A stretch of DNA of 34,170 bases from Candidatus Iainarchaeum sp. (GCA_043812975.1 JBDRLP010000014.1:1-34170); one strand, 5' to 3'. Positions 1-21,623 are shown, counted from the stretch's first letter. The notes: a model not told the origin generated them from the letters alone. Translations and numbers: made by a program.

Positions 1-3000
1 AGTGTTCAGACACTCACAAATATTCAGTCTTCCGTCTCCGAAAGTATTGAACTCCCGGTCAATATTTTCAACAGACTCTAACAATGACCAGTAATCCTTT
101 ATTACCATTGGGAAATTGGTTGTTCTCTGTTCTCCGCTTGGGGTTGTAAAGTTAACTCTAAGGTTTGTTCTTCCTTCTGCAGTGAACATTCCTGATGAAA
201 GGAAATACCTTAAGTTTCCAATATTTGCATAATCGTTAGCTGAAAAGAACTCAGCTGCAGGAGCATTGTTCTTGTATCTTTTTAGTGCTTTAACAAGTTC
301 AAATGTCATTACTTGTGTTGCTCTTCCGTTTGGGCCTGTAATAAATTCTTCATTTAGTACGCCCCAGCTTTCAATCATTTCTCTGAAACCAGAACCAGCA
401 TCTGTTGGTGTTGTTACTCCGGTTCCTCCAAACATTATTGCGTTGTTGCTGAACGGCAAAAATACTCCTTGGTCGAAGCAGGAGTTAATAACTTTTAATT
501 CAACTGGTTTTCCAAAGAAATTATTAAAGTTAAGAGTTCTTGAAGGGCTTACTGAAATACAATCCCTGTAATTCTTTGCCTGTTCATTGGTAATGTTAAC
601 ATTAAGTGTTGCAATGTCAATTGATTTTTCATTGCTTTCGCTTGGCTTAGCTTTAATTCCTAATTGGTATTTTCCAAAGAAGTTTGTTGGTTCTATTTTA
701 ATTGTTTCTTCTTCTCCGGGTTCAATAGTAATTGTTTTTTCTGCAACTGTAATTCCAGGTTGTGGATCAAAGCTCAAATCAATTGGGCTTTCACAGTTAT
801 TTCTTACTTCAAAGCCGCCTTCGTTACAGTTCCATGAATTATTGAATGACGCGTTGTAAGCTCCTCCTGAATAACCTCCGACTCCGCCGTAACCGCCACT
901 TATTCCGCCAAGGTTTCCACCATAGCCCCCTCCGTAATAGCCACTGCCATAAGAAGGGTTATTGTAAGAACCGCCATAATTACCATTTAAGTACGGAGCA
1001 GCATAACCTGCTGAAGGATAATAACTGTTCTGATAATTATTGATTGAGTTAGCTCCTTGGTAATCGTAATAAGAGTCTCCTGCTATTGGTCCCTGTCTGT
1101 AATCAGAACCGATGTATGGAGGCAATCCTGTCCCATAACCATACTGGCTTGAGTAAGGGTCATAAGCTGAGTACTGTGAATTATTGTACTGTGAAAACTG
1201 ACCTCCGCCGTAATTTCCATATCCTGTGTTGAATGGACAACTGTTAATCACAATCTCCCTGTTGGTTAGTATTTCCACACATTCGGATAGATTATTGATA
1301 TTCAAACTAACATCTATCTTTTGGGTTAGTTCTTCTTCTCCGTTTGCTGTTAAGTGAATAGCTTTAATTTCTACCTTTACTTCTGATGCGCCTGAAATAA
1401 TATTGTCTGGTTTGAATTCAAGTGTAATTGTTTCTTCAGCACTTTCATTCAAAAGAGGTGCAAGTTCTTTGTAGAGATTATCAACAGGAACAGCAGTTCC
1501 ATTTTCTATTGTACTGCTTGCTCTGAAAGTTCCAAACAAATTATCGTTTCCTGAAACAAGTCTTACACTTGGGCTTCTCAAACTAACTTTTTCACCGTTA
1601 ACTTTACAATTATTTGTAACTGTGAAGTTCATTGTTTTGGTTTCTGTTGTTGAACCAAATATTCCCCATTCTCCCGGGAACACATTGAAACAACCTGAAT
1701 CATCAACTTCATCTCCGAAACCAATTCTTAGTTCCATTGGGATTGAAGCTAACCAAGTTTGTTCAAAGCTTGAGTTTGAAACATAAATATTAATAGAACC
1801 CTGCAGTTTTAGTGGTTCTGCAATTATTTTTCCAAGAGAACCTAAGCTTATTTTTCCTGCAAGCACTGAATTTCCATCAACATTAATTCTTGTGCCTTCT
1901 GTTGGTTCATCAAACCTGATATCAGCAAATCCTTCAAAGTCTCTGCTCATTGAAACACTGTCAACATCAAGTGGTATTTGTGAAAGATTCAGTAAGTCAG
2001 CATCTATTGTTTTGAAATCAGTGCCTCCAACAGATAATGAAAGCTTTATTGTTTCTGGGTTAGCAACCAGTATGTTTGAAGTAATTTTCAATTGTTTTTC
2101 TGTTGGCTTGTAACCTGTTTTTTCAACAAGAACCCCAACAACAGTTCCTTCTGCCGGGGAAAGTAATGTGTAAGCAAATACTCCTTCTGCATTTGTCTGA
2201 CCTGAAGCAATTATTTCAGCATTCTTTTTAATGCTAACAAATGCGTTTGAAATTGTGTTTGTGGAGTTATCATCAGTAACTCTCACTAATAAGTTGTTGT
2301 TGATTAATGGTACAATTATTTTTGGTAAAACATCGATATTAAGTTCCTCTGCAGGAAGTATCTTTACAAAGATTGTTTTCTTGTAAACCTCAATTGCATT
2401 TTCTGTTCCGGAAATAACTGAAATTTCAAGCGGAATTGTTCCTTCTTTTTTTGTCTCAAAAATAATTTCTCCGCCCACAACAGAATCTTTTCTTAGTTCT
2501 CCGACCGCTACTGAAACCTCAGACCCGACTCCCTGGCCTTCTCTTTCTTCACCAAGAGCTGTTTTGATTTTGTAAGAGTCAATAGAAATACCACTGCTTC
2601 TGTCCTTAATGCTCAATTGGGTTGCGCTTAATGGTGTTTCTGAAACACTGGAAATATCAAATATCAATCTGTACTTGTTGCTGATTTGGGCAGTGTAATC
2701 ATCCAAAATACTGGATGTCAGGTTTTCTCTCAAATCAGTTATTGAATAGTTTGAACAGAATTCTTCTCCGCATAAGGATGAAGGTCCTGCTGTATAAGTT
2801 CTTTTTGAAGCATTAGCGTACAATCCTTGTTTTTCTCCTTTTGAAGCAGAGGTTCCTAAAACTGCATCACTAGGCACTCTGATATAACCGCCGCTTTTTC
2901 CATAAGCCCTGTACCAAATATCCAATAATGAACCGATTTTTGCTTCACTTTTAATCTGAATATCAGCTTCTATTTCAATAATGCCCCCAACAACATTGCT

Positions 3001-5136
3001 GAAAGCAATGTTCGCCCATTTAGCGTTTCCGGTTGTCTGATGCTGGAAATCAGTTGTTTCTCCTGTTGGGGCGGTGTAAGATGTTCCTTTTGCAATTGAA
3101 TCATAAGCAGCCATAACATTGGTAATGTAAAGCAGATCTTTTTCCATTACTTGGTTATCTTCCTTGCCGGTTCTGATGTGGACTCCTGCTTCTTCAAAGC
3201 TTGAATTACTTGGAACAAGCATTCTAAGTTTAGCAGTATAAGTCTGGCCAGGGTTTAGAGCTCTGTCTGATTCTGAAACACTTTCACCCCCTACATACAA
3301 ACCATCAAGTTCAATACCAAATGTCTGAATGTCGGTTGTTAAAGTAATTCTTTTTTGAATTGTAACATCTTTCTGTAAACCAATCGGGGTTGTTGTTGTA
3401 CTAGCCAAATCATTTGCTGAAACAATAAGGAAAACAACCTTGTCAGCTCTTACAGTAATGTTTTTTTTACCGTCAGAATCTGTTGAAACTTCCTGTAATA
3501 ATTGTCCTGAAAAAAAGTCAACTACTTTTATGGTTGCAGCAGTAACAGGTTTTCCCTGATCATCACTTACAGTTGCTTCAATTTTTCCTGAACCAATAGA
3601 GAGTCTGATTTCGAGAACGTTTTCACTTCTATTATCAAGATTTATTGGGTCGCTTGTGTTTTCTGCAAAACCAGGCTTAACTGCATAAACATAATACAAA
3701 CCGTTTTCTACTCTGTCAAAGATTCCTCTTCCATCTAATCCTGTTACAAGTTCCTGTCCAACCTGTGTTCCGTCAGAGTTCGCTTTTAGTTTTAATCTCA
3801 CATTCTCAACAGGCTTACCAGTCTCATCAATAACTGTAACAAGTAAACTTTCACTGTTTTCAAGAGTTGCCTGTTCCAACTCAACCTGCCTGAAATCAGT
3901 TGATGGTCTCATATTTAATGTTTCAATTAAGTAACCTGCTTTATCAATCATTAAATCGTATTCAACATCTTCTCCTACACTGAATTCTACTTTTCCATCT
4001 GCTCCTGTGTAATTACTTGTTATTTTAGTTTCTCCTTTTGAAAGAGTAACCAAAGCATTCTGAACAGTATCTCCTGTGTCTTTATCTTTTACTAAAAGTT
4101 TAATTGAACCAACAACATTATCTGCAAGTAAAACAGCAAACTCTGTGCTTTCGTTTTCAAGAACTTCCTGAATAATCCCTAAGGCTTTTCCATCATATTC
4201 TCCGTAAACTCCGCTTCGGTCATAAGCGACAATGTAAAACCTTCCTGAAGGAATTGAATTGAAAATTGCTGTTCCTGAAGCACTTGTCTGTTTTGAATCT
4301 AAAATAGTTCCTACTCCTCCTGTTTCAGAAGCAAGGTAAAGAGAAACATCAATTGCTGCAAGGGTTTCACTTCTGCTGTTCATAACAGTTACAAACACGC
4401 TTCCATGTCCCTGTTCGGGTTCTTCTAGGAAAAGATCAAATGATGTTTCTGATGAAAGAGAAATTGAATCATCACTTAAAGTATAATTCCCAAAAACTCT
4501 TGTTGTTAATGTTACACAATTACTCGGAACATCTAATTCAATTATTCCATTGGAAGTGCTTTCAATTGTTGTGAAGCTTGTCCCTGTACAGGAAAACTCT
4601 ACTTCTAAAAATTCATCAATCAATCTTGTTGTGCCTGCTTTCATCAGATTAATTGTTTTTCTTAGTGTAACAAGTTCTTTTTGCATTGTTATTGTTAGTT
4701 CTTCCCCGCTTTCTTTAGCAGTGTAAAAAACAGTTTTATCATTCATGCCTACTGCGATTACATTAATTTCAACTTCTTCATTAAGCGGTAATTGTAAATC
4801 AGCTATTCCAACAGCATTTGTTGTTGTTTCATCAACAAGTTCTCCATTAAGAGTTGCTTTTATTGCTGCAGCACTTACAACCGCTCCGGTATTATCCTGA
4901 ACAAATATTTCTATATTTGCTGCTCCGAAAAATAAGGAACTTATTCCCCAGACAATAAGTAAAAGAACAACGAGTGAAAATAAAATTGCTATTGGAAATG
5001 AAGGTATGTTCTGGGCTTCTATTGCATCAACAACCTTGTAAACAGGTAATCCTTTGTCATCAAGCCAGTCAAGAACAGAATAATATTTTTCCTCTGCTTT
5101 ACTATAAAAGTCCTTAATCGAGTCAGACAAGCCCAT
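1..5136 (-). CDS. Giant membrane-anchored surface protein (>=1712 aa, C-terminus beyond the left window edge); paralog of 6395..14797; carboxypeptidase-regulatory/Ig-like repeats
   Basis: Manual translation from ATG at 5136: MGLSDSIKDFYSKAEEKYYSVLDWLDDKGLPVYKVVDAIEAQNIPSFPIAILFSLVVLLLIVWG. The frame was open at every point checked down to base 1 (...DREFNTFGDGRLNICECLNT). Absence from the ORF track is consistent with no in-window stop. Beta-sandwich motifs such as VTVIDETGKPVENVRLKL and IDKAGY. Confidence 0.92.
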   Translation of the reverse strand, partial: MGLSDSIKDFYSKAEEKYYSVLDWLDDKGLPVYKVVDAIEAQNIPSFPIAILFSLVVLLLIVWGISSLFFGAANIEIFVQDNTGAVVSAAAIKATLNGELVDETTTNAVGIADLQLPLNEEVEINVIAVGMNDKTVFYTAKESGEELTITMQKELVTLRKTINLMKAGTTRLIDEFLEVEFSCTGTSFTTIESTSNGIIELDVPSNCVTLTTRVFGNYTLSDDSISLSSETSFDLFLEEPEQGHGSVFVTVMNSRSETLAAIDVSLYLASETGGVGTILDSKQTSASGTAIFNSIPSGRFYIVAYDRSGVYGEYDGKALGIIQEVLENESTEFAVLLADNVVGSIKLLVKDKDTGDTVQNALVTLSKGETKITSNYTGADGKVEFSVGEDVEYDLMIDKAGYLIETLNMRPSTDFRQVELEQATLENSESLLVTVIDETGKPVENVRLKLKANSDGTQVGQELVTGLDGRGIFDRVENGLYYVYAVKPGFAENTSDPINLDNRSENVLEIRLSIGSGKIEATVSDDQGKPVTAATIKVVDFFSGQLLQEVSTDSDGKKNITVRADKVVFLIVSANDLASTTTTPIGLQKDVTIQKRITLTTDIQTFGIELDGLYVGGESVSESDRALNPGQTYTAKLRMLVPSNSSFEEAGVHIRTGKEDNQVMEKDLLYITNVMAAYDSIAKGTSYTAPTGETTDFQHQTTGNAKWANIAFSNVVGGIIEIEADIQIKSEAKIGSLLDIWYRAYGKSGGYIRVPSDAVLGTSASKGEKQGLYANASKRTYTAGPSSLCGEEFCSNYSITDLRENLTSSILDDYTAQISNKYRLIFDISSVSETPLSATQLSIKDRSSGISIDSYKIKTALGEEREGQGVGSEVSVAVGELRKDSVVGGEIIFETKKEGTIPLEISVISGTENAIEVYKKTIFVKILPAEELNIDVLPKIIVPLINNNLLVRVTDDNSTNTISNAFVSIKKNAEIIASGQTNAEGVFAYTLLSPAEGTVVGVLVEKTGYKPTEKQLKITSNILVANPETIKLSLSVGGTDFKTIDADLLNLSQIPLDVDSVSMSRDFEGFADIRFDEPTEGTRINVDGNSVLAGKISLGSLGKIIAEPLKLQGSINIYVSNSSFEQTWLASIPMELRIGFGDEVDDSGCFNVFPGEWGIFGSTTETKTMNFTVTNNCKVNGEKVSLRSPSVRLVSGNDNLFGTFRASSTIENGTAVPVDNLYKELAPLLNESAEETITLEFKPDNIISGASEVKVEIKAIHLTANGEEELTQKIDVSLNINNLSECVEILTNREIVINSCPFNTGYGNYGGGQFSQYNNSQYSAYDPYSSQYGYGTGLPPYIGSDYRQGPIAGDSYYDYQGANSINNYQNSYYPSAGYAAPYLNGNYGGSYNNPSYGSGYYGGGYGGNLGGISGGYGGVGGYSGGAYNASFNNSWNCNEGGFEVRNNCESPIDLSFDPQPGITVAEKTITIEPGEEETIKIEPTNFFGKYQLGIKAKPSESNEKSIDIATLNVNITNEQAKNYRDCISVSPSRTLNFNNFFGKPVELKVINSCFDQGVFLPFSNNAIMFGGTGVTTPTDAGSGFREMIESWGVLNEEFITGPNGRATQVMTFELVKALKRYKNNAPAAEFFSANDYANIGNLRYFLSSGMFTAEGRTNLRVNFTTPSGEQRTTNFPMVIKDYWSLLESVENIDREFNTFGDGRLNICECLNT

Positions 5137-5223
5137 CAAATCACTGAATCATTAAATGCAATTAATGTATATATTATTAATTGTATTACGTCTTTCCATT
5201 TAAAGATATCTATTCTACTTAAA

Positions 5224-5287
5224 TTTGTTTGCTAATTTAGGAATTTTTTCAGACTTTTGTTTGCTAATTTAGGAATTTTTTCAGGCT
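5224..5287. repeat. Tandem 32-bp duplication covering the stop codon of 5264..6358
   Basis: tttgtttgctaatttaggaattttttcag(a/g)ct at 5224-5255 and 5256-5287, 31/32 identical. Confidence 0.92.
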
Positions 5288-6358
5288 TACTCCGTAAATA
5301 TGATTGTTTGGATCTCCTGATTCACCGTCGCCGCTCACCATGTATTTTGGATCCTTTTCCTTAAAATAAATTTTCACTTCATAATTATCAATTTCAGGAA
5401 TAATACTTGGGTCAGCTCCGGAAAGAGGAATTGCTCTAACTCTAAGCTCAACAAATTCAAAGTCAGGGTCACTATCAAGACCGGCATCACGAATAATCTG
5501 CCTAACTTCGCCTTCTAAAAGGCTTTCAGCATCACCTTTTTCTTTGATTTTTATTTTTCCATCTTCCAATCTAGGATTGTTTCTAATTCGGTTGCCGACT
5601 TCCTTTGCAGCAGCCAAAGCTTTGAATAATCTTAACGGAACATAAACCCTGAATCTTCCTCTTGGAAGAATTGCTTCTTTCAAAACTTTTCCTGTTTGCG
5701 AATTTTCAACTTTTACAAGAGGGAACTTTTCATATTCCTCATCAGTCATAATGTCAGGACTTAAATCCATTGTGAGATAAAATGTTCCTGTGCAGTTTCC
5801 AAAGTTTCCGTTTTCGCAGTCAATTACCTCAAAAAAGTTTTCCAGATGACCTCCTTGAATCTGTTTGTTAAGGTTGGTTTGTAAAGTTACTTCCAGTGCT
5901 TCCTGATTAGTTTGTTCTAAATCAATCAAAAAACCTCTTGCATCAGGAGTTTTTTGAAGAATAGAATTCAGGTGTCTTGCTGCTCTTAATGCAAAATTGT
6001 TTTTTCCATCAGCCCCAACACCAAACCTGTCTGCAACAAATTCAGCTTGAAGTTCATCCCAGTCTATTGGTATGTTAATAAATTTTGTATAAACATCATC
6101 CGGCAGACCATCACTTGGTTCCCTGTCTCTTGTTGAAAAATCTTCGATGCTGTATCTTATTCCGTAATTAAAAACCTGTAATGCATCAGCCCTTGCAAGA
6201 TCAGCTACTGCCTGCATTTCTTCCTGTCCTGAAATATCAGAAATAATATCAGAAACAGTTCTCTCTGTTGAAATCATTGACTGAACAAGTAACAATGAAA
6301 GCATTATCAGTACAAAAGCAATCAATGCAGTAAAAAGTGTGAAACCTTTTGAATTCAT
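5264..6358 (-). CDS. Large pilin-like protein with class III signal peptide (364 aa)
   Basis: MNSKG|FTLFTALIAFVLIMLSLLLVQ: short basic leader, KG cleavage site, hydrophobic helix, then a soluble domain with a Cys pair. Confidence 0.75.
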   Translation of the reverse strand: MNSKGFTLFTALIAFVLIMLSLLLVQSMISTERTVSDIISDISGQEEMQAVADLARADALQVFNYGIRYSIEDFSTRDREPSDGLPDDVYTKFINIPIDWDELQAEFVADRFGVGADGKNNFALRAARHLNSILQKTPDARGFLIDLEQTNQEALEVTLQTNLNKQIQGGHLENFFEVIDCENGNFGNCTGTFYLTMDLSPDIMTDEEYEKFPLVKVENSQTGKVLKEAILPRGRFRVYVPLRLFKALAAAKEVGNRIRNNPRLEDGKIKIKEKGDAESLLEGEVRQIIRDAGLDSDPDFEFVELRVRAIPLSGADPSIIPEIDNYEVKIYFKEKDPKYMVSGDGESGDPNNHIYGVSLKKFLN

Positions 6359-6394: not shown

Positions 6395-9300
6395 CTAGGG
6401 TGATGTAATTCCGAATTTATACCCTTCCCAGGCAGTATAAACTTCTGCAAATTCAGTTGGCTTTAAGTCTATGAAATTTGAAGGCATATTGCTTGTGTCC
6501 TGATTGTACTTTGCAAAGTAACATTCAGGCGTATCTACACATTCTTCCTGATAAGAAACAAGTTTGTTCATAGCACATGTTGCATTATTGAAAGGGCTTC
6601 TTGTTGTCTGATTTGTTGAGTTACAACCAAACATGTACTGGTTTTGTAAATTAGGATCTAAACCTAAACCGCTTTTTGCTATTCCAAGTGAAGTTAATAA
6701 TGCTTCAAAGTTCAGTGGCTGAGTAATTTCGCTTTGTTTAGCTTCTACAGCCTGAGCAATTAAACCGCCATACCTATCCCCGTTTGCCTGCTCTTCTAAG
6801 TAACTCTTTGCAATAGCAACATGCTGGTTCTTTGTTGAACTATTTCTTAGGAATGGTTTCGGGAATTCGCTTTCATTTTCAACTTCTGGGATTAAACCAG
6901 GGAATGATCCCCCGATTCCTTTATTGAAGTTAGGGGCTTTACAATCGTTTAACACAAATTTTTCTATGTCAGGTTCTTTTGGAATTGTATCTCTTAATCC
7001 TAATGTAAACAATGTACTTTGATCATCAGCAACCGAAACAGCTACACTATAAGTTCTGTAATTTCTGATTGTTGCTGTTGATGGTTCTAATTCAAAAGTT
7101 GGTCCAAAGAAGTCTAATTGTGCTTTCTTCAGATCATCCTCTCTTGTGCTTATGGTTCCTGTGTTTGTCAATTTATCAAGTTCTTTGTCAAGTACAAAAT
7201 CGTATGCTTTTAGTCCGACCCAGTTTGAAAGTAATCCGAATGCTCCTTCTTTAACAACATTCCATGCAAGTTTTCCTAAACTTCTGAAACTAAAAAGCCT
7301 TGGTCTTGCGCTTGATGGATCAAATGCCTCAGTAGCAGCCTGAGTAAGTCTTCCTGCTGAAAGTTTGTTTGTTTTTTTAGCAACTGCTTCAATAAAGTCA
7401 TCTGCTGCGTTCGCTGCGCCTGCAGTGGCTCTTGGGAATGCTGAACTGCCATCAGTTAATGCTTGTTTAGTGTATCTTGTTAAGATTTCTTCCATTTCCT
7501 GCAGTGCTTGTGTTTGCTGTGCCTGACTTACCTTTGCAGTATATGAAGTTACTGTTCTTGATCCTTTACCCACACTTTTTACATCAGTTTCGGCAATTTT
7601 AATTTTTACTTGTTTAAGTTCATCAAGAATGTCTATTGGAAGGTTAGCCCTGTCAACACCGATTTCAGTCAAGTATCTTCCAATTGCTCTTTCCCTTAAT
7701 GGCCCTGTTACTGAAGTTTCAAGTTTTCTTGTAAGTGCCCCTCCTGTATTATTGAATTGATTTTCTGTAATTCCAAATGGCAGATTATCGCTTGCAAGAC
7801 TTCCCAAATTCATTTTTCCTGAAATTTCTCCAGCTACTTCATCTGCAAGTTCTGATGCTTTTATTGGAGAACCTGGGGCAATGTTTCCTCTCATCTGAAC
7901 AAACTCGCTTAGAATTTTTTCATTCTGTCCTGTTTTTTGTATTGCTGCTTCAACAGCCGCGCCTATTTCTTCCTGAGTTACTGATTTTCCAACACGTGCA
8001 AGTCTTGATTTTTGTTTAAGTGTTTCAGTAATGTTTGCTTTAATGTTTTTTTGTAAGTCAGAGTTAAGGTTTCTGATAAATTTACTTCTTAAAAATGCAT
8101 TTCCTCCTGCTCCCTCAAACACTTGCGTGTTAAACTTGTTTGCAATGGTTGTGGCTATATTATCTGAAAGGCCCCCGACCTGTGAAGCATTAATTGCTTT
8201 GGCTCCGTAAGTCTGGCTTGCAGCAAGTATCGAATCATTCACAACTGCTGCTGGCACAAATGCATCAATAATATTTTCAGGAACACTTTCCCCAGATGGA
8301 GCATTTAATGCCGCAGCAGTATCATCTAAGCCTTCAACCCCTAGGAAAGAGAACACTGTCTTTACTGTGTCTCCCAAATAACCCATTGCATCTTTAATGT
8401 ATTCAGTGGCTTTTCCTAATAAAGATGAAGCAAAATCAAAAACATCAGAAATATACGGTAAGTCTCTTCCTAAAAGTGTAAAGTACGGGATTCCACAATC
8501 AAACAATAGATTGAACACTGCTCCGCCCCAACCAATAATAGGTCTTGCAAGGGAAGTTGCTAAACTTGTTGCACTGCACGCTCCCATGTAGAAATGTGAT
8601 GCTTTATCTTTTGCGTTTGCAACAGGTTCAGAATCGCCTTTGCGTGTTGATGCAGTTCCGCCCAGGATTTCATCAGCTGTACTGGAAACCTTAGCCGATC
8701 TTGACATTTTCAGGAAATCATCCAAAGTCAATTCTTCATCAGGCTTACCATTCCACACAAATGTTGCGTAATAAGTTTTTCCCTGTTCTAAATCAGCAAG
8801 TTTTTCAGTAAACTCAAGCGGATGTATTCCGCAAACTTCAAGAGGAATTTCTTTAGGTATCGGTTTCTTCCCTTCACCTTCAATTCTTTTTACTTCCACA
8901 ACAACTGTTTTTCCCTGAGCATTCTGTAATTGTGAATCTCCTTCAACACAAATCCTTGCTTTTCCTGTGAAGTTGTTTTTCTCCTCATCTAATTCTGAAA
9001 TTGAAACCTCAGTAATCCTGTTATCAGATTCTTCTTCAAAAAAGAACGGGCTTTCTTTTGTAATTCCGCTTATTGGTGTTGATTGCTTTCCTTCAAGGCT
9101 TACTCTTTCCTTGATGCTGCTTGTAATTGTTAAATCAGTACACTGAGCACTACCATAACCAACCTGTATTTTATCGCCAGGAACAACGTCTATAGTTCCA
9201 AAGTCAAGTTTGCCTTTTAATAAGAAATAACTTTCATCCTCAGAAATACAACCATCAATTGCATTATCCCTTAAACCTGCAATTGCATCTGCTGCTTCCG

Positions 9301-12300
9301 AAGCAATATCTCCTTGTAATGTATTATCAGCGCCAATTGCTTCTCTGATAAATGCATCAATCTGGTAAGGAGAATCAGAAGCAACTTTATCCATTTCAAC
9401 CTTTACAATGTAGCCTTCTTCGCTTCCTAATTTTAGATTAAGTTTGTTGGTTCCACTTGAACCGTTTGTGAATCTTTCCTCATCACTGAAAAGTTTCTTT
9501 GCAACATTCTTTCCAACTTCTTCTAATACTGGTTCATTAGTTTCAACAACACCAATCCATGGTTTTGATGACTGGTTAATTCCCACGCCTTTATCAACCG
9601 GTAAAAAGTTTCCAATGTTTTGTATAAGCGGAGTACACTGTTCAGTAACCTGTCTGACTTTAGCATCTTTATCATCATCAGATGTTAGGTCTATGACTAT
9701 GTTCATTAAATCCGGAAGAACTCTTGCTCCTTGTACACGTGCAGAACCATTTAATGTTATCTGGTATCTTCCGCAGCCTCTGAAATTACTGTTCATGAAA
9801 ACCTGCTTTGAATAACCTCCAAGAAGTCCTCCTGCATAATCGTTTTCAATAAAATCAGAAGTATAACTTTTGATTGAACTTTGTCTTGTTGCAAATTCTT
9901 TCTCAAGCATCTGCGGAGTCAAATTATCATGGCTCATGTAAACATAGAAAGTATCGCTCACCAATCCTAACTCATCAAAGTTACAGAAACCCCTTGCAAG
10001 ATTGCCCTGACCACAGCTTGTTTGGCTTACGCTTCCACTGTTGTTCTGGATTTGTTTTTCAGCATCCCTGATTTTTTGTTCAACCCTGTCAGTTAAGTAT
10101 TTTGAAAGCTGTACTGCGTCACAATAAGAATTGTCACACTGAGGGCTTGTTGAATCAGCAATCACCGGGAACCTTACTTCTTTCTCAGAGTTGCCTCCGC
10201 ATATTGAAATGTTTCTTGCTTCACTTGCCGCAACTCCTGATTCAACATTTTGTCCAAGTTTTACATCCACAATTATAGGGCTTGAATCAATCGGGTTTCC
10301 GCTTCTTGGTAAAAATCCTTTAACATAAACCGGTGCCGGGCTTCCCTGGAAGTCTTCATTCTTTTCTAGTATTAAGTTGAATTTTGCTCGGGCTCCAGGA
10401 GCAATAAATGCATTGATTGGAGCTATTGCAAGTTTGTTGTTTCCAATAGGCGCCTCTGAAAGACCAACCACCCTTACTTCTTCTGCACAGGTGTTTCTAA
10501 GAGTAATTTCTTTAGAAATTGCCCCCTCGTTGCTTTTAGTGCTTATGTAAACAAGGTTTCCAGGAATTGCTATAAGGCACTGGTCGCCTGAAGCATGAGC
10601 GGTTATAATCACTGGTCCAAAGCTGAATGATTGTCCGTCTATTACTCCGGTAATATCAAGTTCCTTAACCTCAACCAGAGTTGTTTTTTCATTCCTTGTT
10701 ACCTGTGCTACTAGTGTTTTTGGTGGAAGAATCGCCTGTCCTTTTTTCAGGAACTGTATAGGGAAATCAGGAACAACTCGAATATCTACATTGCCGCTTC
10801 CCTTTGTGTTCCTTACACTAAACCTCACGTCCTCAATGTCTGCTTCTCCGATATTTCTCACAAACAAAGGAACCTGTGCACTTAATCTTCCCTGATTATC
10901 AGGGCCCAAAAATAATTCAATATTCCTTGTTACCTGTAATGCATACCTAGGGTTCCAGATGTAAACATCCAAAGGAATGCTTTTCTCAAAGCCGTCAGTC
11001 TTAAACACTAAATCGAAACCGAACTTTTCTTTACCCGGGTAATTTCTCAGTATTTTGTTTGTAATGGTAACAGTAATCTCATCTATATCCTTTCTTCGTT
11101 CAGTGCTTGTTAGTTCAGGTGCAAGGTTAATTGTTTCTGCTTCAACCTCTAAACCTTCATTCTTTTTACCTTCAGGAATAATTTCAGGAATCAATTCAAG
11201 ATCAAGACCCTGACATTCTGGTCTATCTGCAAGTTTTGCTGTAAAGCTTGTGCTTGTTGAGGCAGAGAAATTATTGTAAGTATAATAATTGGTTGATTGC
11301 TGTGGAGGCAAGGTCCCATAGGTGCTATCATAGTAACCCCTGTCTTCTAATCCTGATGCAACATAAACAGCCAGCTTGTTTTTGCTGAACTCAACACAGC
11401 TGCTGTCAATAGTAGGATTAAATTCAACATTTACTTTTGTTTCTGCTGAAACACTGAAGCCTGTCTGGGTTCTGCCTCTTGCAATTATTCTTACTTCTCC
11501 GTGTGCATTTTCTTTGTCTCCAATGTACTCAGCAACCACTACAAGCCTCTGAGTTGAGTTAGGGCTTAAAACTGAAATAGGAGTTACCTGTATTTCCATT
11601 CCCTGCGGAAGTGTTCCAATAGGAATTACTTCAAAGCTTAATTGTTCAACCCCTTGTTTGGAACTGTTTTGAATCTCAATAAACTTTTCAGCCGAGGTTT
11701 GTCCTTTTCTGATGACCATGAATGATTCGTCTTCATTAAACTGAATAACTCCGTCTTTGGTTATTTCGATTGCTCCTTTTAGTGACTTAAACTTCGGAAC
11801 ATTAACTTCGAAAAGTAAAGTGCCGGCATCAAAGGAATTTCTCACAGAGTATCTTCCATTTCCTCCGTTGTTTGCAGAACCGTTTCCTTTAATTGTTTCT
11901 AAGTGTTCGTTGGAAGTGTTTCTCAGAATTATTTCTGCATTCTCTATTGCGTTTCCTGCTTCATCCTCAAGAATAATTACAAAGTCTTCTCCCAGAACGA
12001 CATTGTCAGGAATTGTTTTCAAAACTAAATTTCTTTCCTCATAAATCTCAAAATAAAATTGTTCATTAATAACTGTTTCTCCGGAAATAATCTGAAGAGT
12101 TATTGATGAGTTTTCTGTTTTGTATGGTTTAAAGAAAAGTCTCACACTTGTTGGTTCTCCCTGTAAAGCAGAAACATTATCTACCTGAATACTGGTGTCA
12201 GTGCTGTTGCTGTCAGGGAAATTTGTATAATCATTAATTCCAAATCCCTGGAAACCAATTTTTGGTTTTTGTCTTTGGGTTGAACCTTTCACGGTTACTT

Positions 12301-14797
12301 CTGAAGCAAGGTCAGGCGAAAGATTAACTTCAAGTGCATAAACGTTTCCTAAAACCGCGGAAAAGTTTTCAACTCCGAATTCAGAACCGTCACTTCTCAC
12401 AAACTGGTAAGAAGCGCATAAATCATTTTCACAGGAAGCAGTCTGTTCTAAAATCTTAATCCTGTCTTTTTTGGTTTCAGCATACAAACTTGTTTTGTTT
12501 GAAGAAAATTCTTCCAATCCAAGTTCAGGATCATCAGGTGTCCTGTACTTCATGTTGCTGATTTTTGCCCATGCCCTGTACTGCAATAATGCATCGGGGT
12601 TAGAAGCGGTTTCTTTTGCTTTTACCCTGACCTTAACAACCTTTTCTCCACCACTTTCAAACTTAACTTCAATCCATTTGTTGTATTTGCCTTCTTCTCC
12701 CTGATTATCAAAATCAAGCGCTTCAAAACCAGGGCTTGGTTCAGGAGAATAACTTCTTCCGTAAAAAGCGCGCCCTCCGGAAGCTGAATAACCAATTATT
12801 CCAGCATCCTGTGAATCAACAAATCTTACATTATCTTCTCCAAGCCTTACATGTAAACCATTTTCATTTGCCCCTTCAGGATAAACAACTCTGAATTTCA
12901 GGAAATAATCAATTCCTTTAGCAAGCCCTTGTGCTTCTGTTCCATCAACAGTGTAAACTCCTAAAAATTCAACTTCAGGATTTGTTCCTACTCCTGTTTT
13001 TCCGTTAGGAGAAACACTGACTTGATCTAATCCTTCAACAAAGATTTCTTCTTCGAAAACATTTCCCTCTTCATCAGTAATCTTAACTGTTACATAACTA
13101 TTATCCTTCGGATCAAAAACAATCCCGCCCTTTGTGTATTCTCCTTCAAACAGCAAATCATTTCCCGCGGTTATTGTAACTAAACCTGCACTAATTTCAT
13201 TGCCGCTTTTGTCAAGAACAGTTAAGCCAACCTGTGAAAATGGTTTTATTAGTGTGATGAATGCTTCGTTTTCAAAAGTATCGAGGATTTTTATTGTTTT
13301 TCGTCCTTCCAGCCCATTTTTGGTTGCAGTAATAAATAAGGTAGAGTTTAATGGTGCAAGCATTGAAAACTTTCCTGTAATATCAGTTTTCTGCGGAGGC
13401 AAACCCAAAGGAACAAAACCTTCTTCCTCAGTTTCTTCCATAAAGTTTAATGTAGCATCATTGATTGCTTTGCTTTGGTCATCAACAGTGTAAACAATCA
13501 GTGAACCGGAATTATCCGCGGTTGCTCTTTCCATTACAAGATTAATGTTGTTTCCTTCGCTCAGCAAAACACTTTGTCTTGCAGGAACATATTTTTCATC
13601 CCATGCACTAACAAAGTAAAGATCTTCGCTTGAAAGATTCTCAAAATTAACTTCTCCTGCAAGTGTTGTTCTTTTTGTATCGAGAAGTTCTCCGAATTCA
13701 TTGAAAAGGAAAACATCAATTGAAGTTAATGGTCTTCCTGTAACATCAAGAATTCCAACAGTAAGTGCATTTGCACCTGGTTTCATGTAAACTTCCCAAG
13801 GGTACTCATCAGCTCTCAGAGTAATTGCTTCTCCTAAAATGCTTGAATCATAAGTTAAGTAATCTTCTTTTTCAACAACAATCCTGACTGATGTTCCTTT
13901 TGAAATTTTTGTTATCTGTTCTCCATCCTCATCGGTTTCGGTTAATTCAGTAATTAATTCGTTATCCTTGAAATCATAAACGCGAAGAGTAAAGTTTCCA
14001 AGCCTTTGCTGTGAATCAAAATCAAAAGCTCTTACAATCAGATTTGTTTGTCCTGATGAAGCTCCTGCTTTTGGTGTTAATGCTATTTCATCAATTGAAT
14101 CAGAACCAAAAATAGTTTCAAAAATTTTCTGTTCATAATTAGGATGATCAATTGTTAACTGAACTCCGTCCTCAAGAATAATTCCGGCACAGGTGTAAAT
14201 TCCTCTTGATCCTTCAAAACAGTCAATGGAAGCATCTTCATTAAGCTTTGCAGTTACTTTTGCCCCTTCGATAAGATCACCGGTTTCAGCATCAATTAAT
14301 CTTAGAGCTCCTTCAGCAAATGCAACTATTTTCTGAAGCCTTATTGATACATCCATTGCCTCAGAATTAATAGTAAGAGTTCTTGTAAATGGTTCAAAAT
14401 CATCTTTTGTAGCTTCAATAATAAGTTTCGAACCAATTCCCCGCGGAATTGATATTGATTGTTGATCACGGAAAGTGTTTGAACTAATATCAATTTCCTT
14501 TTCTGTGTCCGCGTCAATAAAAGTAATGCTGACTCCTCTTAATGTAGCTCCTTGGTTATCAGTAATATCGAGGATTAAAGTTGCACCTGAACTTGAAAGA
14601 AACAAGAAACCATAAACTAAGAATAAAATTGCAAGCAAACCTGCAATTGCTACAGGAAAAGCAGGAATACCCCGGTCTTCTAATGGATCAATTATTGCAT
14701 AAACAGGAATTCCTTTATCGCTTATGAAATCCATAGCGGCAAAGAACTTGTCTTCCATCGCTGTATAAACGCCACCTATCTGCTCTGACAAACTCAT
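6395..14797 (-). CDS. Giant membrane-anchored surface protein (2800 aa): N-terminal TM anchor, carboxypeptidase-regulatory/Ig-like repeats, Cys-rich modules, helical/hydrophobic region, lysozyme-like C-terminus
   Basis: ORF track; single TM near aa 48-68; repeats such as LTVGILDVTGRPLTSIDVFL and VEKEDY; many paired Cys; Ala/Gly-rich helical segment at ~aa 2070-2550. Confidence 0.9.
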   Translation of the reverse strand: MSLSEQIGGVYTAMEDKFFAAMDFISDKGIPVYAIIDPLEDRGIPAFPVAIAGLLAILFLVYGFLFLSSSGATLILDITDNQGATLRGVSITFIDADTEKEIDISSNTFRDQQSISIPRGIGSKLIIEATKDDFEPFTRTLTINSEAMDVSIRLQKIVAFAEGALRLIDAETGDLIEGAKVTAKLNEDASIDCFEGSRGIYTCAGIILEDGVQLTIDHPNYEQKIFETIFGSDSIDEIALTPKAGASSGQTNLIVRAFDFDSQQRLGNFTLRVYDFKDNELITELTETDEDGEQITKISKGTSVRIVVEKEDYLTYDSSILGEAITLRADEYPWEVYMKPGANALTVGILDVTGRPLTSIDVFLFNEFGELLDTKRTTLAGEVNFENLSSEDLYFVSAWDEKYVPARQSVLLSEGNNINLVMERATADNSGSLIVYTVDDQSKAINDATLNFMEETEEEGFVPLGLPPQKTDITGKFSMLAPLNSTLFITATKNGLEGRKTIKILDTFENEAFITLIKPFSQVGLTVLDKSGNEISAGLVTITAGNDLLFEGEYTKGGIVFDPKDNSYVTVKITDEEGNVFEEEIFVEGLDQVSVSPNGKTGVGTNPEVEFLGVYTVDGTEAQGLAKGIDYFLKFRVVYPEGANENGLHVRLGEDNVRFVDSQDAGIIGYSASGGRAFYGRSYSPEPSPGFEALDFDNQGEEGKYNKWIEVKFESGGEKVVKVRVKAKETASNPDALLQYRAWAKISNMKYRTPDDPELGLEEFSSNKTSLYAETKKDRIKILEQTASCENDLCASYQFVRSDGSEFGVENFSAVLGNVYALEVNLSPDLASEVTVKGSTQRQKPKIGFQGFGINDYTNFPDSNSTDTSIQVDNVSALQGEPTSVRLFFKPYKTENSSITLQIISGETVINEQFYFEIYEERNLVLKTIPDNVVLGEDFVIILEDEAGNAIENAEIILRNTSNEHLETIKGNGSANNGGNGRYSVRNSFDAGTLLFEVNVPKFKSLKGAIEITKDGVIQFNEDESFMVIRKGQTSAEKFIEIQNSSKQGVEQLSFEVIPIGTLPQGMEIQVTPISVLSPNSTQRLVVVAEYIGDKENAHGEVRIIARGRTQTGFSVSAETKVNVEFNPTIDSSCVEFSKNKLAVYVASGLEDRGYYDSTYGTLPPQQSTNYYTYNNFSASTSTSFTAKLADRPECQGLDLELIPEIIPEGKKNEGLEVEAETINLAPELTSTERRKDIDEITVTITNKILRNYPGKEKFGFDLVFKTDGFEKSIPLDVYIWNPRYALQVTRNIELFLGPDNQGRLSAQVPLFVRNIGEADIEDVRFSVRNTKGSGNVDIRVVPDFPIQFLKKGQAILPPKTLVAQVTRNEKTTLVEVKELDITGVIDGQSFSFGPVIITAHASGDQCLIAIPGNLVYISTKSNEGAISKEITLRNTCAEEVRVVGLSEAPIGNNKLAIAPINAFIAPGARAKFNLILEKNEDFQGSPAPVYVKGFLPRSGNPIDSSPIIVDVKLGQNVESGVAASEARNISICGGNSEKEVRFPVIADSTSPQCDNSYCDAVQLSKYLTDRVEQKIRDAEKQIQNNSGSVSQTSCGQGNLARGFCNFDELGLVSDTFYVYMSHDNLTPQMLEKEFATRQSSIKSYTSDFIENDYAGGLLGGYSKQVFMNSNFRGCGRYQITLNGSARVQGARVLPDLMNIVIDLTSDDDKDAKVRQVTEQCTPLIQNIGNFLPVDKGVGINQSSKPWIGVVETNEPVLEEVGKNVAKKLFSDEERFTNGSSGTNKLNLKLGSEEGYIVKVEMDKVASDSPYQIDAFIREAIGADNTLQGDIASEAADAIAGLRDNAIDGCISEDESYFLLKGKLDFGTIDVVPGDKIQVGYGSAQCTDLTITSSIKERVSLEGKQSTPISGITKESPFFFEEESDNRITEVSISELDEEKNNFTGKARICVEGDSQLQNAQGKTVVVEVKRIEGEGKKPIPKEIPLEVCGIHPLEFTEKLADLEQGKTYYATFVWNGKPDEELTLDDFLKMSRSAKVSSTADEILGGTASTRKGDSEPVANAKDKASHFYMGACSATSLATSLARPIIGWGGAVFNLLFDCGIPYFTLLGRDLPYISDVFDFASSLLGKATEYIKDAMGYLGDTVKTVFSFLGVEGLDDTAAALNAPSGESVPENIIDAFVPAAVVNDSILAASQTYGAKAINASQVGGLSDNIATTIANKFNTQVFEGAGGNAFLRSKFIRNLNSDLQKNIKANITETLKQKSRLARVGKSVTQEEIGAAVEAAIQKTGQNEKILSEFVQMRGNIAPGSPIKASELADEVAGEISGKMNLGSLASDNLPFGITENQFNNTGGALTRKLETSVTGPLRERAIGRYLTEIGVDRANLPIDILDELKQVKIKIAETDVKSVGKGSRTVTSYTAKVSQAQQTQALQEMEEILTRYTKQALTDGSSAFPRATAGAANAADDFIEAVAKKTNKLSAGRLTQAATEAFDPSSARPRLFSFRSLGKLAWNVVKEGAFGLLSNWVGLKAYDFVLDKELDKLTNTGTISTREDDLKKAQLDFFGPTFELEPSTATIRNYRTYSVAVSVADDQSTLFTLGLRDTIPKEPDIEKFVLNDCKAPNFNKGIGGSFPGLIPEVENESEFPKPFLRNSSTKNQHVAIAKSYLEEQANGDRYGGLIAQAVEAKQSEITQPLNFEALLTSLGIAKSGLGLDPNLQNQYMFGCNSTNQTTRSPFNNATCAMNKLVSYQEECVDTPECYFAKYNQDTSNMPSNFIDLKPTEFAEVYTAWEGYKFGITSP

Positions 14798-14959: not shown

Positions 14960-15232
14960 ATGGTTAATTTTCTTCTCATAAAACTAAGGACTGTATTCTA
15001 CGTTTTTACAGTAACAGCCCTCAGCAGTTTTGGATTGTTTGCTATTATAACAGGAATAACCCTTCACCTTGAAGGCCAGTTCGCCGAAGCTTTTGCACTT
15101 TATTTAGCAGGTTTCACAGCAATAATCTTTGACATCTGGTGTAGTTACAGAGTAACTCAATTGGTAGAAATCTGGTCAAGTAAAGGTGTTTTAATGAACA
15201 TCCAGAGTTCCATGAAGAACAGAAAAAATTAA
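14960..15232 (+). CDS. Small two-TM membrane protein (90 aa), unknown function
   Basis: Two hydrophobic segments and a basic C-terminal tail; TTTTTATA about 30 nt upstream; fills the gap between the flanking genes. Confidence 0.65.
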   Translation: MVNFLLIKLRTVFYVFTVTALSSFGLFAIITGITLHLEGQFAEAFALYLAGFTAIIFDIWCSYRVTQLVEIWSSKGVLMNIQSSMKNRKN

Positions 15233-15786
15233 ACAACCAAAACTAACTTATTTCTTAATTTTTTTGTTTTTTTGCTTTGTTTAGTACTCCATTTAAACCA
15301 GATAAAATAAAACCCTGCAATTGTTACAAACAAAAACACCCTGAATAATAAGTCATGTGAAAAGTTTCCCGCATCCAAACCAAACCACGCAATCACAAGA
15401 ACGCTTGCAATGATTCTGAAAAAATTAAAAGCAACAAGAACAATTGTTCCGACTAAAGAACCAATAATTCTTTTTTTCAATTCAATTCCGAATGATGCAA
15501 GAGTTGCAGCCCACACAAGAGCCAGTTCAAGCAAACCAGTGCAGAGATAACTAAACCCGAGAGGTATAGAAAAAGTTTCAAGATAAACAAGCACTGGTTC
15601 CTGAAATTCTATTGTTCCGGAAAAACCAATTAATTTCAAAAACTCCAAAGTAAAAAAAGCATAAAAAAATTCGAACCATTCAATAGGTACAAGTGAAAAT
15701 AAGAAATAAAACAACAAAAAAAGCACTGCTATTCCTGCAAGAAATTTTCCTGTTTTTATGTTTTCTTTTTGTGAATTTTTTTCCAT
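15229..15786 (-). CDS. Exosortase/archaeosortase-family transpeptidase
   Basis: Multi-pass membrane protein with the family triad in order: Cys (YLCTG), Arg (FNFFRI), His (FSHD). ATG 15786 preferred over the track's TTG 15795. Confidence 0.85.
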   Translation of the reverse strand: MEKNSQKENIKTGKFLAGIAVLFLLFYFLFSLVPIEWFEFFYAFFTLEFLKLIGFSGTIEFQEPVLVYLETFSIPLGFSYLCTGLLELALVWAATLASFGIELKKRIIGSLVGTIVLVAFNFFRIIASVLVIAWFGLDAGNFSHDLLFRVFLFVTIAGFYFIWFKWSTKQSKKTKKLRNKLVLVV

Positions 15787-15886
15787 ACAAAACAATTCAT
15801 TTTCAGAAATTTATTGGTTCTCTTTAGTCCCAAGTAAAGTATAATAAGAACAATACTCTAATTATTGTCAAAAATAGGGGTGTATT

Positions 15887-20515: not shown

Positions 20516-20516
20516 A

Positions 20517-20945
20517 ATGGATTCAAAAGCTCAGGCCTTTGCTCCGTTCAAAATGTTAATAGGTGCAATTATGGCTATGCTTATTTTAGTCATTATTATT
20601 GGAGCAATAAATTATTTTGAGGATCTCAGAGTTGATGTTTCAAGACAGAGGTTTTATGATGGATTAAATAATGCTATTCATCAGCCTAATGAAACTATTC
20701 TTCAGGTTGAGGATGCGCAATTTGCTGAAGGAACGACATTTTCTACTTTGGGGCTTTCAAAAAAATCAGGTCTCGATCCAGAGTGTTTAGAATTTGTTGA
20801 TACTGATTCCCCGACTTTTGTGGTGGAAGATGAGCTTATAACAATAAAAGAAAATGTGCTTACTGATGTTTTCATAAAATGCGAAACAGAAAGTGCTGGT
20901 TGTGTTATTTTTTGTGAAATCTCGTTCGGAACCGATTTCGACTGA
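20517..20945 (+). CDS. Pilin-like protein, class III signal peptide (142 aa)
   Basis: MDSKA|QAFAPFKMLIGAIMAMLILVIIIG; 4 Cys in the head domain. Confidence 0.8.
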   Translation: MDSKAQAFAPFKMLIGAIMAMLILVIIIGAINYFEDLRVDVSRQRFYDGLNNAIHQPNETILQVEDAQFAEGTTFSTLGLSKKSGLDPECLEFVDTDSPTFVVEDELITIKENVLTDVFIKCETESAGCVIFCEISFGTDFD

Positions 20946-20952
20946 ACCTTGT

Positions 20953-20972
20953 GAAAGAATAAAGTTTATATA
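20953..20972 (+). promoter_or_regulatory. BRE/TATA internal promoter upstream of pilin 21005..21547
   Basis: Purine-rich run followed by TTTATATA (20965-20972), in the first real intergenic gap of the operon. Confidence 0.6.
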
Positions 20973-21004
20973 TGGGTTAAACTCTTAACTTTAGAGTGAT
21001 TAAA

Positions 21005-21547
21005 ATGGATTCAAAAGGTCAAGCGTATAGTGTATTCAAACTTCTGATTGCGGCTGTTGTTGCAGGAGCAATTTTACTTATTTTATTACAGGTACTTCAG
21101 GTTTTGCCGAACATTGGTTCACAAAACCCGAACAGTGTTTCTTCAGAAATAGTTAAAAGCCAGATAAACAGCCCTGGGGAAGAAAGAATAATCAAAGATG
21201 TTTCTTTCAACAATGGAGATTCACTTAATGCTAAAACAATTGCAGCAGGTTCAGGCGGACTATCAACACAACAAATTTGTGTTTTTGCAAGTGACTTTGC
21301 ACCTAATTTAGAATCATTTATAGATCCTGGTGAAAATGGGAAAGTTGTTATTTATGAAGGCTCATTTGCGCAGAAAACAAGATTATTCATAATGTGTGAC
21401 AGGTGGAATGATCTTATTGAGACTGATGGATCACTTGAAGTTTATAACGTTGAAGAAAGGTTTGGTATTGATGAGGGTCTTGATGGTTGTGAAGCACCAG
21501 AACCAGAAACTTCAAACTACTGTGTAGTAGCAATAATCTCAGATTAA
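21005..21547 (+). CDS. Pilin-like protein, class III signal peptide (180 aa; candidate major pilin)
   Basis: MDSKG|QAYSVFKLLIAAVVAGAILLILL; 4 Cys; own TATA box; GTGAT SD-like site before ATG 21005 (alternative GTG start at 20996). Confidence 0.82.
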   Translation: MDSKGQAYSVFKLLIAAVVAGAILLILLQVLQVLPNIGSQNPNSVSSEIVKSQINSPGEERIIKDVSFNNGDSLNAKTIAAGSGGLSTQQICVFASDFAPNLESFIDPGENGKVVIYEGSFAQKTRLFIMCDRWNDLIETDGSLEVYNVEERFGIDEGLDGCEAPEPETSNYCVVAIISD

Positions 21548-21548
21548 A

Positions 21549-21623
21549 CACAGTTGCACCCTTCGGGCACCTTCGGCGGCTGTGGGGTACCGTCCACTTC
21601 GTCCCGAAGGGACTCAGTAGGAC
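21549..21623. other. GC-rich intergenic double-hairpin element (75 bp)
   Basis: CACAGTTG...CGGCTGTG stem enclosing CCC-TTC-GGG and CC-TTC-GG mini-hairpins, followed by GTCC-ACT-tc-GTCCC-GAA-GGGAC-tc-AGT-a-GGAC. Confidence 0.7.

What the first reader, a model, noticed from the sequence alone, without database searches (positions are those of the whole stretch)
826..1239. Cys-bracketed prion-like (G/Y/S/N/Q) low-complexity loop inside an extracellular archaeal giant protein
Between C1300 and C1437 lie 136 aa: PFNTGYGNYGGGQFSQYNNSQYSAYDPYSSQYGYGTGLPPY...YLNGNYGGSYNNPSYGSGYYGGGYGGNLGGISGGYGGVGGYSGGAYNASFNNSWN. By manual count this has 27 Tyr, 33 Gly, no Lys or Glu and one Arg. The composition and [G/S]Y[G/S] motifs resemble FUS/hnRNPA1 prion-like domains and Gly/Tyr-rich adhesive proteins. 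It is inserted in one of the protein's C...(F/L)xVxNxC modules and is not a simple DNA tandem repeat. Inference: a disulfide-closed sticky loop for adhesion, condensation or amyloid-like cross-linking at the cell surface.
Basis: partly seen in the sequence, partly recalled or inferred. Interest (0 to 1): 0.75.

Follow-up and report, generated by a model that had tools for sequence, protein, structure and literature searches.

The report
Sticky tyrosine-glycine loop on archaeal giant
A giant, likely surface-exposed protein of tiny Iainarchaeota archaea carries an uncharged tyrosine- and glycine-rich loop, predicted to be floppy, whose make-up and even tyrosine spacing are kept in relatives across the order, and which likely forms a reversible sticky mesh where these cells touch other cells.

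Summary
Observation confirmed: 136 aa (33 Gly, 27 Tyr, no Lys/Glu) between two Cys. The gene is a ~2,535-aa N-anchored giant of an Iainarchaeota (DPANN) archaeon, one of several collinear paralogs beside pilus-type genes. AlphaFold places the loop, disordered, inside one ASH/PapD/MSP-like Ig module.

Every positional ortholog checked has it (28 of 28 loci; 127 distinct loops, 37-216 aa). Aromatic fraction stays near 0.20, charge is low and aromatics are evenly spaced (116 of 127; controls 84 of 150). That grammar fits the PEX13 YG domain closely. The first 44 residues are more conserved in the family than the folded flanks. The two Cys come and go together (58 both, 68 neither, 1 single): a likely but optional staple. 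Neighbouring paralog B has a Tyr-rich insert at the equivalent site in 4 of 7 genomes.

Best reading: a reversible aromatic sticker mesh on a cell-contact apparatus (0.5). Amyloid is disfavoured. Bold reading: a PEX13/nuclear-pore-like selective gel in a host junction (0.12). Function is untested. This scan noted the same loop earlier in other genomes; my paper searches found no description.

The parts
829..1236 (-). G/Y/N/S-rich low-complexity loop, A1302-1437 (136 aa), predicted disordered
1105..1236 (-). Sequence-conserved proximal part of the loop (A1302-1345), starting with the order-wide motif P-[YF]-N-x-G-[YF]-G-x-Y (1210-1236; G1306 in 65 of 65)
829..1104 (-). Length-variable distal part of the loop (A1346-1437), with a recurring Y-P motif (991-1020) and a Gly-rich stretch (862-987) that most relatives lack
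1237..1239 (-). C1301, N-side Cys of the optional staple
826..828 (-). C1438, C-side Cys of the optional staple
562..1281 (-). Host module 2 (A1287-1526), predicted ASH/PapD/MSP-like Ig domain, with invariant C1287 (1279-1281) and N-x-C1449 (793-795)
1282..1692 (-). Module 1 (A1150-1286), predicted ASH/PapD-like Ig domain
40..561 (-). Module 3 (A1527-1700); the equivalent module of paralogs C and D carries long inserts flanked by Gly-rich hydrophobic segments
4942..5001 (-). Single N-terminal hydrophobic segment (A47-66), predicted membrane anchor
1..5139 (-). Giant A gene, 1,713 codons in the window; continues on contig C61 through a 141-nt overlap to about 2,535 aa; CarboxypepD_reg domains in the N-terminal half
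5264..6358 (-). 364-aa protein with a pilin-like N-terminus (weak ComGF hit, E 5e-4, below cut-off); same position between giants B and A in 7 of 7 genomes read
6395..14797 (-). Giant paralog B (2,800 aa)
11261..11347 (-). Short Tyr-rich insert of paralog B at the equivalent loop position of its module 1; longer in three relatives, absent in three
15229..15795 (-). Exosortase/archaeosortase family protein (TIGR04178, above cut-off)
15887..18169 (+). Type II/IV secretion ATPase (T2SSE; FlaI/TadA-like)
18170..24592 (+). Probable membrane platform gene plus small genes with pilin-like N-termini (read by eye and position; only one weak class III signal hit)
   Evidence: inference

Best explanation
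The loop is a conserved, uncharged, evenly tyrosine-studded segment, predicted to be disordered and to stick out of one Ig-like module of a likely extracellular giant protein, and it most likely works as a reversible sticky mesh: many weak aromatic contacts would join it to the same loop on neighbouring copies, to the similar loop of paralog B and to the facing cell surface. Shown: composition, position, conservation, even aromatic spacing, joint gain or loss of the two Cys. Predicted: disorder, host fold, N-in/C-out topology. Inferred: the Cys pair staples the loop's two ends so that the split Ig domain folds and resists pulling; the conserved first 44 residues dock on a specific partner and root the loop; the variable distal part adds stickers by in-frame expansion; the collinear paralogs stand side by side in one cell-contact apparatus.
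For: Insert present in 28 of 28 loci with both flanks, out of 30, and in the A-position gene of 7 of 7 genomes read in gene order. 127 distinct loops of 37-216 aa keep aromatic fraction 0.202 +/- 0.045 and K+E 0.011; aromatic count scales with length (Spearman 0.74, 44 loops). Aromatics more even than shuffles in 116 of 127 loops and 18 of 20 distant ones, against 84 of 150 control windows. Tyr-Gly is the most enriched dipeptide (227 against 135). Purifying selection inside the loop: no amino-acid-changing difference over 43 proximal codons at pS 0.11 in the closest pair. pLDDT below 50 in the loop, ordered flanks; an MSP domain aligns across the insert (Z 11.8, rmsd 2.1 A, 94 residues). Paralog B has a Tyr-rich insert at the equivalent site in 4 of 7 genomes. 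Paralogs are collinear. Published: even aromatic spacing gives dynamic rather than solid assemblies (PMC8638251, passages); Tyr-driven extracellular agglutination by galectin-3 (PMC7060198, abstract); five such giants proposed for cell-cell interaction (PMC5905446, passages).
Against: No binding, gelation or adhesion has been measured. Only one or two of at least six paralogs carry such a loop, which limits local sticker density. Strong sequence conservation of the proximal part is more than a generic sticker mesh needs. Some distant orthologs have few aromatics (minimum fraction 0.09; 16 of 127 have fewer than 11). Orthologs are kin, so the counts overstate independence. The only cell-wall-related archaeal prion-like domain tested in 10.1101/2020.07.20.212902 was negative in both amyloid and prion assays (passages), which shows that a high score does not guarantee self-assembly.
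Confidence: 0.5

Rival explanations
1. Assembly tether: the conserved motifs fold on binding to a neighbouring giant subunit or a pilin (as aromatic motifs dock on MSP/PapD-type domains, recalled), and the rest is a tolerated flexible linker.
For: Proximal 44 aa are 70% identical in the family against 48% and 57% for the flanking modules; G1306 is invariant in 65 of 65 and the first nine residues form an order-wide motif; a 12-residue family-conserved segment has its aromatics on one helical face (moment 0.56-0.83 at 100 degrees against 0.19-0.51 at 170; no shuffle control).
Against: Does not explain why aromatic fraction and even spacing are kept along the variable part at any length; beyond the first nine residues the family motifs are found in about half of the 44 loops scored (22-25 of 44). 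It can be true together with the best reading.
Confidence: 0.2
2. Selective gel plug: several paralogs form a ring, the hydrophobic Gly-rich hairpins of paralogs C and D open a pore in a target membrane, and the YG loops of A and B fill its mouth as a PEX13- or nuclear-pore-like permeability barrier between symbiont and host.
For: Loop grammar matches the PEX13 YG domain as described in PMC9795577 (passages): aromatics separated by about 4 small uncharged residues, variable number and position, at least 11 Tyr needed. Mean spacer 3.6 here against 3.8 in yeast PEX13; aromatic fraction 0.20-0.22 against 0.215 Tyr. In collinear paralogs the B loop, A loop and C/D hydrophobic inserts fall in consecutive modules 1, 2 and 3. 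A barrier-like density interrupts the 22-nm portal of the Nanobdella attachment organelle, proteins unidentified (PMC11104419, passages).
Against: No evidence that the giants form a ring or a pore. The loop is followed by a beta-strand, not by PEX13's amphipathic helix, and lies about 1,230 residues from its own membrane anchor. The hydrophobic hairpin is weak or missing in several C/D orthologs. Nanobdella belongs to another phylum; the family was matched here only in genomes marked same order and was not sought in Nanobdella.
Confidence: 0.12
3. Inert or decoy loop: a tolerated insertion, glycan carrier or virus decoy with no sticker role.
For: Length varies nearly six-fold; the family tolerates other low-complexity inserts; distal expansion by in-frame tandem repeats occurs (L003).
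Against: Present in every positional ortholog checked; purifying selection; costly aromatics kept at fixed density and spacing; N-x-S/T sequons are fewer than chance (172 against 206 +/- 12).
Confidence: 0.1
4. Functional amyloid: loops of neighbouring molecules stack as cross-beta and cross-link the surface.
For: Highest prion-like score in the genome; three Pro/Gly-free N/Q/S/Y stretches of 11-14 residues; Tyr/Phe-rich archaeal candidates were more often amyloid-positive in 10.1101/2020.07.20.212902 (passages).
Against: Adjacent aromatics are depleted (118 of 127), Pro makes up 9% and Gly 24% of the spacers, several prolines are conserved, no repeating register is kept across relatives, and both ends are tethered to one domain.
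Confidence: 0.08

Closest known systems
PEX13 YG domain (Gao et al. 2022, PMC9795577; passages read)
   Same: Uncharged Tyr/Gly/Ser-rich disordered segment of similar length; aromatics about 4 residues apart; number and position vary between species; membrane-anchored protein.
   Different: PEX13's domain is N-terminal and followed by an amphipathic helix in the peroxisomal membrane; this one is a closed loop inside an Ig module far from the anchor, richer in Asn/Pro, with conserved end motifs. No homology is implied; gelation and selectivity untested.
FUS / hnRNPA1 prion-like low-complexity domains (sticker-and-spacer; PMC8638251 passages; FUS composition recalled)
   Same: G/S/Y/N/Q composition, charge depletion, evenly spaced aromatics, high prion-like score.
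   Different: Those are terminal domains of intracellular RNA-binding proteins with a lower aromatic density (about 0.13-0.15, recalled); this is likely extracellular, tethered at both ends and optionally Cys-stapled.
Galectin-3 N-terminal domain (PMC7060198; abstract read)
   Same: Extracellular aromatic-driven multivalent self-association that bridges surfaces.
   Different: Soluble lectin with a free Pro-rich tail; here no lectin domain was identified and the loop is part of a membrane-anchored giant.
Five >1,800-aa membrane-anchored proteins of Ca. Forterrea multitransposorum (PMC5905446; passages read)
   Same: Clustered giant membrane-anchored proteins of a Diapherotrites archaeon, proposed for cell-cell interaction; very likely this family (inferred from size, number and clustering; not aligned by name).
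   Different: The passages I read give no domain anatomy and do not mention the loop; supplements were not read.
ASH / PapD-like / MSP Ig domains (CEP192 SPD-2, Hydin, MSP, PapD chaperones)
   Same: Predicted fold of modules 1-2 (Z 10-12; Foldseek E about 1e-11 to ciliary central-pair proteins).
   Different: Sequence identity about 10%; Cys-bracketed archaeal modules; a 37-216-aa insert in one loop.

Membership tests
Prion-like LCD of FUS/hnRNPA1 type | G/S/Y/N/Q-rich, charge-poor composition with high prion-like score | tested here: met
   (score computed with recalled PLAAC frequencies, not the program)
Prion-like LCD of FUS/hnRNPA1 type | Intrinsic disorder | tested here: met
   pLDDT below 50 for model residues 164-298; a proxy, monomer only
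Prion-like LCD of FUS/hnRNPA1 type | Evenly spaced aromatic stickers | tested here: met
Prion-like LCD of FUS/hnRNPA1 type | Part of an RNA-binding protein (RRM, RGG, zinc finger) | tested here: not met
   Pfam shows only CarboxypepD_reg/Ig-type domains and there is an N-terminal membrane anchor
Prion-like LCD of FUS/hnRNPA1 type | Phase separation or fibrils in vitro | not testable with these tools
   needs bench work
PEX13 YG domain | Aromatics separated by about 4 small uncharged residues; at least 11 Tyr/aromatics | tested here: met
   mean spacer 3.6; 111 of 127 loops have 11 or more aromatics; criteria
PEX13 YG domain | Followed directly by a long amphipathic membrane helix | tested here: not met
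   followed by strand E302-308 of an Ig module
PEX13 YG domain | Tyr-dependent hydrogel with selective permeability | not testable with these tools
   needs bench work
ASH/PapD/MSP-like Ig fold (host module) | Structural match over the whole domain, across the insert | tested here: met
   1row Z 11.8, rmsd 2.1, 94 aligned over model 149-379; 7ptb Z 12.2, rmsd 5.5, 218 aligned; predicted model
ASH/PapD/MSP-like Ig fold (host module) | Sequence-profile match to an ASH/PapD/MSP family | tested here: inconclusive
   no such Pfam or NCBIfam hit; identity about 10% is below profile reach
Disulfide-stapled loop | The two Cys co-occur | tested here: met
   58 both, 68 neither, 1 single of 127; 31/34/0 of 65; 4 joint changes on a quick tree
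Disulfide-stapled loop | S-S distance or bond observed | not testable with these tools
Functional amyloid | Conserved repeating beta-register, few prolines | tested here: not met
   conserved prolines, 9% Pro in spacers, no kept repeat unit

The most novel reading that the evidence does not exclude
The Iainarchaeota giants assemble a heteromeric ring whose Gly-rich hydrophobic hairpins open a target membrane while the YG loops of paralogs A and B fill the opening with a PEX13/nuclear-pore-like selective hydrogel: a prokaryotic, convergent 'aromatic phase' gate controlling what passes between a DPANN symbiont and its host.
Probability: 0.12. Interest if true: 0.92.

Novelty: new variant of a known kind. 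Interest (0 to 1): 0.52.

Why it matters
The proteins that build DPANN contact structures are unidentified in the papers I read (PMC11420986, PMC11104419; passages). This family is matched in 55 of 58 high-quality genomes sampled from the phylum, so the loop is a core surface feature. It gives a small, expressible piece with a clear prediction: Tyr-dependent reversible cohesion. It can be tested with existing assays, including swapping it for the yeast PEX13 YG domain. If it gels, sticker-and-spacer phases are used on archaeal cell surfaces; if it also gates a pore, selective aromatic phases would not be a eukaryote-only device.

Tried and rejected
Complex prediction (three copies of the loop-bearing module) was not available, so oligomer formation is open. 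The ESM Atlas gave no result. C-terminal region A1700-2535: confident model (mean pLDDT 81.6) but no Foldseek match at E 0.001 and best Z 6.3, for its first 130 residues only; the weak rows for viral fusion proteins and beta-pore toxins (TM-score about 0.04) were rejected as noise, so a fusexin or pore-toxin assignment has no support here, and domains were not searched singly. Fusion-loop idea (HAP2-like): the only HAP2 row (Z 8.7) covers the Ig module alone, and the loop is long and polar; rejected. DNA tandem-repeat origin in this genome: rejected. Glycan-carrier idea: sequons below chance. Sequencing runs: no RNA holder listed; DNA contigs cover only 718-875 near the loop, so strain length variation could not be seen. 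The careful tree did not finish; the quick tree was used. Within-loop column conservation away from the ends in the order-wide alignment is inflated by aligning Tyr and Gly and was not used. 42 of 166 proteins could not be parsed for both flanks and 5 with almost no insert (weak flank scores, matching module 1 only, taken as other paralogs) were set aside. The one single-Cys loop (P0061) may be a parse that ended early (not checked further). Paper searches found no description of this loop or of ASH-like modules in Diapherotrites; the library lacks most subscription papers, the Youssef 2015 Diapherotrites paper was not held, and no supplements were read (those of the archaeal prion preprint, which list all PLAAC-positive proteins, are closed and may include a relative). 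The giant-gene preprint 10.1101/2023.11.21.568195 has no mention of Diapherotrites or DPANN in its main text.

Full report
Observation. The finding is accurate. On the minus-strand ORF 5139-1, Cys codons at 1239-1237 and 828-826 enclose 136 residues with 33 Gly, 27 Tyr, 17 Asn, 17 Ser, one Arg, four Asp and no Lys or Glu. A PLAAC-style score, computed with frequencies recalled from memory, ranks it first among 931 ORFs of the genome. It is not a DNA tandem array here.

The protein and its setting. The gene runs on to contig C61 through an exact 141-nt overlap and encodes about 2,535 aa. It has one hydrophobic segment at residues 47-66, five Lys/Arg before it and one in the 33 residues after it, then CarboxypepD_reg domains; N-in/C-out topology is inferred from this and from the paired Cys. 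An ortholog at 51% identity lies in Ca. Iainarchaeum andersonii, so this is an Iainarchaeota (Diapherotrites, DPANN) archaeon. The order giant B, pilin-like gene, giant A, then further giants was seen in this genome and six relatives. A T2SS/T4P-type ATPase, an archaeosortase-family gene and pilin-like genes lie beside it in the window. Profile alignments show A, C and D collinear over their length (E 9e-194 and 3e-166) and B more loosely (1e-75). The profile matches 161 of 201 genomes drawn from the phylum and 55 of 58 high-quality ones; all listed matches are marked same order. A published Diapherotrites genome has five such giants in 42 kb, proposed for cell-cell interaction (PMC5905446, passages).

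Structure. AlphaFold2 on A1140-1700 with 26 sequences gives three ordered beta-sandwich modules and pLDDT below 50 for the whole loop. The modules match ASH/PapD/MSP-like domains (ciliary central-pair proteins, Foldseek E 4e-11; CEP192 SPD-2 Z 12.2; an MSP domain Z 11.8, rmsd 2.1 A, aligned across the insert). C1301 follows a short strand and C1438 precedes the next strand by three residues, at a place where paralogs have a turn of a few residues, so the two Cys are likely neighbours in space; the distance was not measured.

Conservation. The insert is present in 28 of 28 loci with both flanks (30 examined). Pooling genome loci and protein searches gave 127 distinct long loops of 37-216 aa (median 94); 42 of 166 proteins could not be parsed and 5 with almost no insert were taken as other paralogs. 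Aromatic fraction is 0.202 +/- 0.045, Lys+Glu 0.011, all charge 0.054. Aromatics are spaced more evenly than shuffles in 116 of 127 and avoid adjacency in 118 of 127; in 20 distant loops the counts are 18 and 20, against 84 and 66 of 150 control windows (150 drawn from 230) from ordinary proteins of this genome. Kinship inflates these counts. Tyr-Gly is the top dipeptide. The loop is two-part: in 13 family members the first 44 residues average 70% identity, above the folded flanks (48%, 57%), while the distal part averages 44% and changes length, in one relative by 9-residue tandem repeats. Across the order the first nine residues and an aromatic near the end are kept; G1306 is invariant in 65 of 65.

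The cysteines. Both are present in 58 loops, both absent in 68, one alone in 1 (31/34/0 in the 65-genome alignment). On a quick tree of 44 flank sequences the pair changes four times, at least two forced by well-supported branches. This supports a disulfide but shows that it is dispensable; loop length is similar with and without it (medians 104 and 99).

Paralogs. Giant B carries a Tyr-rich, Cys-free insert at the equivalent loop of module 1 in 4 of 7 genomes. Giants C and D have no insert in module 2 but long inserts in module 3 flanked by Gly-rich hydrophobic segments, weak or absent in some orthologs. The inserts therefore fall in consecutive modules of collinear chains. The C-terminal 835 residues of A fold confidently but match no solved structure well.

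Mechanism. A constant density of evenly spaced aromatics among Gly/Ser/Asn/Gln spacers is what sticker-and-spacer polymers use for reversible, non-aggregating cohesion (PMC8638251, passages). I therefore commit to a reversible aromatic mesh on a cell-contact apparatus (0.5), rooted by a sequence-specific proximal motif and optionally stapled. A pure assembly tether (0.2), a selective gel gate (0.12), an inert or decoy loop (0.1) and amyloid (0.08) are the rivals. The gate reading rests on the match to the PEX13 YG grammar (spacer 3.6 against 3.8; aromatic fraction 0.20-0.22 against 0.215), the register of the paralog inserts, and a barrier seen in the Nanobdella portal (PMC11104419, passages); against it, no ring or pore is shown, the amphipathic helix of PEX13 is missing, and Nanobdella is another phylum where the family was not sought.

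Novelty. It works like a prion-like or YG low-complexity domain but is a member of neither family: no RNA-binding context, no PEX13 architecture. Six paper searches found no description, within the library's limits. This scan's earlier notes report the same loop in other genomes; I treated them as leads and tested the claims myself. What this report tested beyond the summary lines I saw of those notes: spacing statistics with controls, Cys co-variation on a tree, the two-part conservation and the PEX13 comparison. Verdict: real, conserved, new variant of a known kind, function untested; interest 0.52.

Noticed in passing
G000:C5 19999-12452 (-), 12412-4754 (-); G000:C23 2553-9851 (+): Paralogs C and D carry long inserts in module 3 bracketed by Gly-rich hydrophobic segments (glycine-zipper-like); paralog C also has four Q-P-G-Y-N repeats there, the second-highest prion-like score in the genome (19.8).
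   Followed up: partly
L051:100-2610 (C61; A1700-2535): C-terminal 835 aa of giant A fold with mean pLDDT 81.6 but give no Foldseek match at E 0.001 and best Z 6.3; may hold undescribed folds; domains were not searched singly.
   Followed up: partly
L004, L010, L012, L016, L022, L023, L026, L029 (alignment A1, columns about 690-780): Several A orthologs have a second low-complexity insert (G/P/Q/T/Y-rich) in module 3 that the window's protein lacks.
   Followed up: no
window 6395-14797, B residues about 2075-2150 and 2510-2545: Giant B has two Gly-rich, moderately hydrophobic helical-looking segments with conserved Cys, kept in 7 of 7 genomes aligned.
   Followed up: partly
window 26948-31471 (+): 1,507-aa protein with a signal-like N-terminus, no Pfam hit, and a C-terminal hydrophobic segment plus basic tail; possible substrate of the nearby archaeosortase-family gene.
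   Followed up: no
window 5224-5288: 32-bp direct duplication (96% match) overlapping the stop of the 364-aa pilin-like gene.
   Followed up: no
G000:C1 25723-23918 (-); G000:C56 3876-3331 (-): Two unrelated ORFs with Tyr- or Gly/Met/Tyr-rich uncharged segments (36 Tyr in 100 residues in the first).
   Followed up: no
window 32344-33216 (-): 290-aa membrane-anchored protein with many short Cys-bearing repeats and no Pfam or NCBIfam hit.
   Followed up: no
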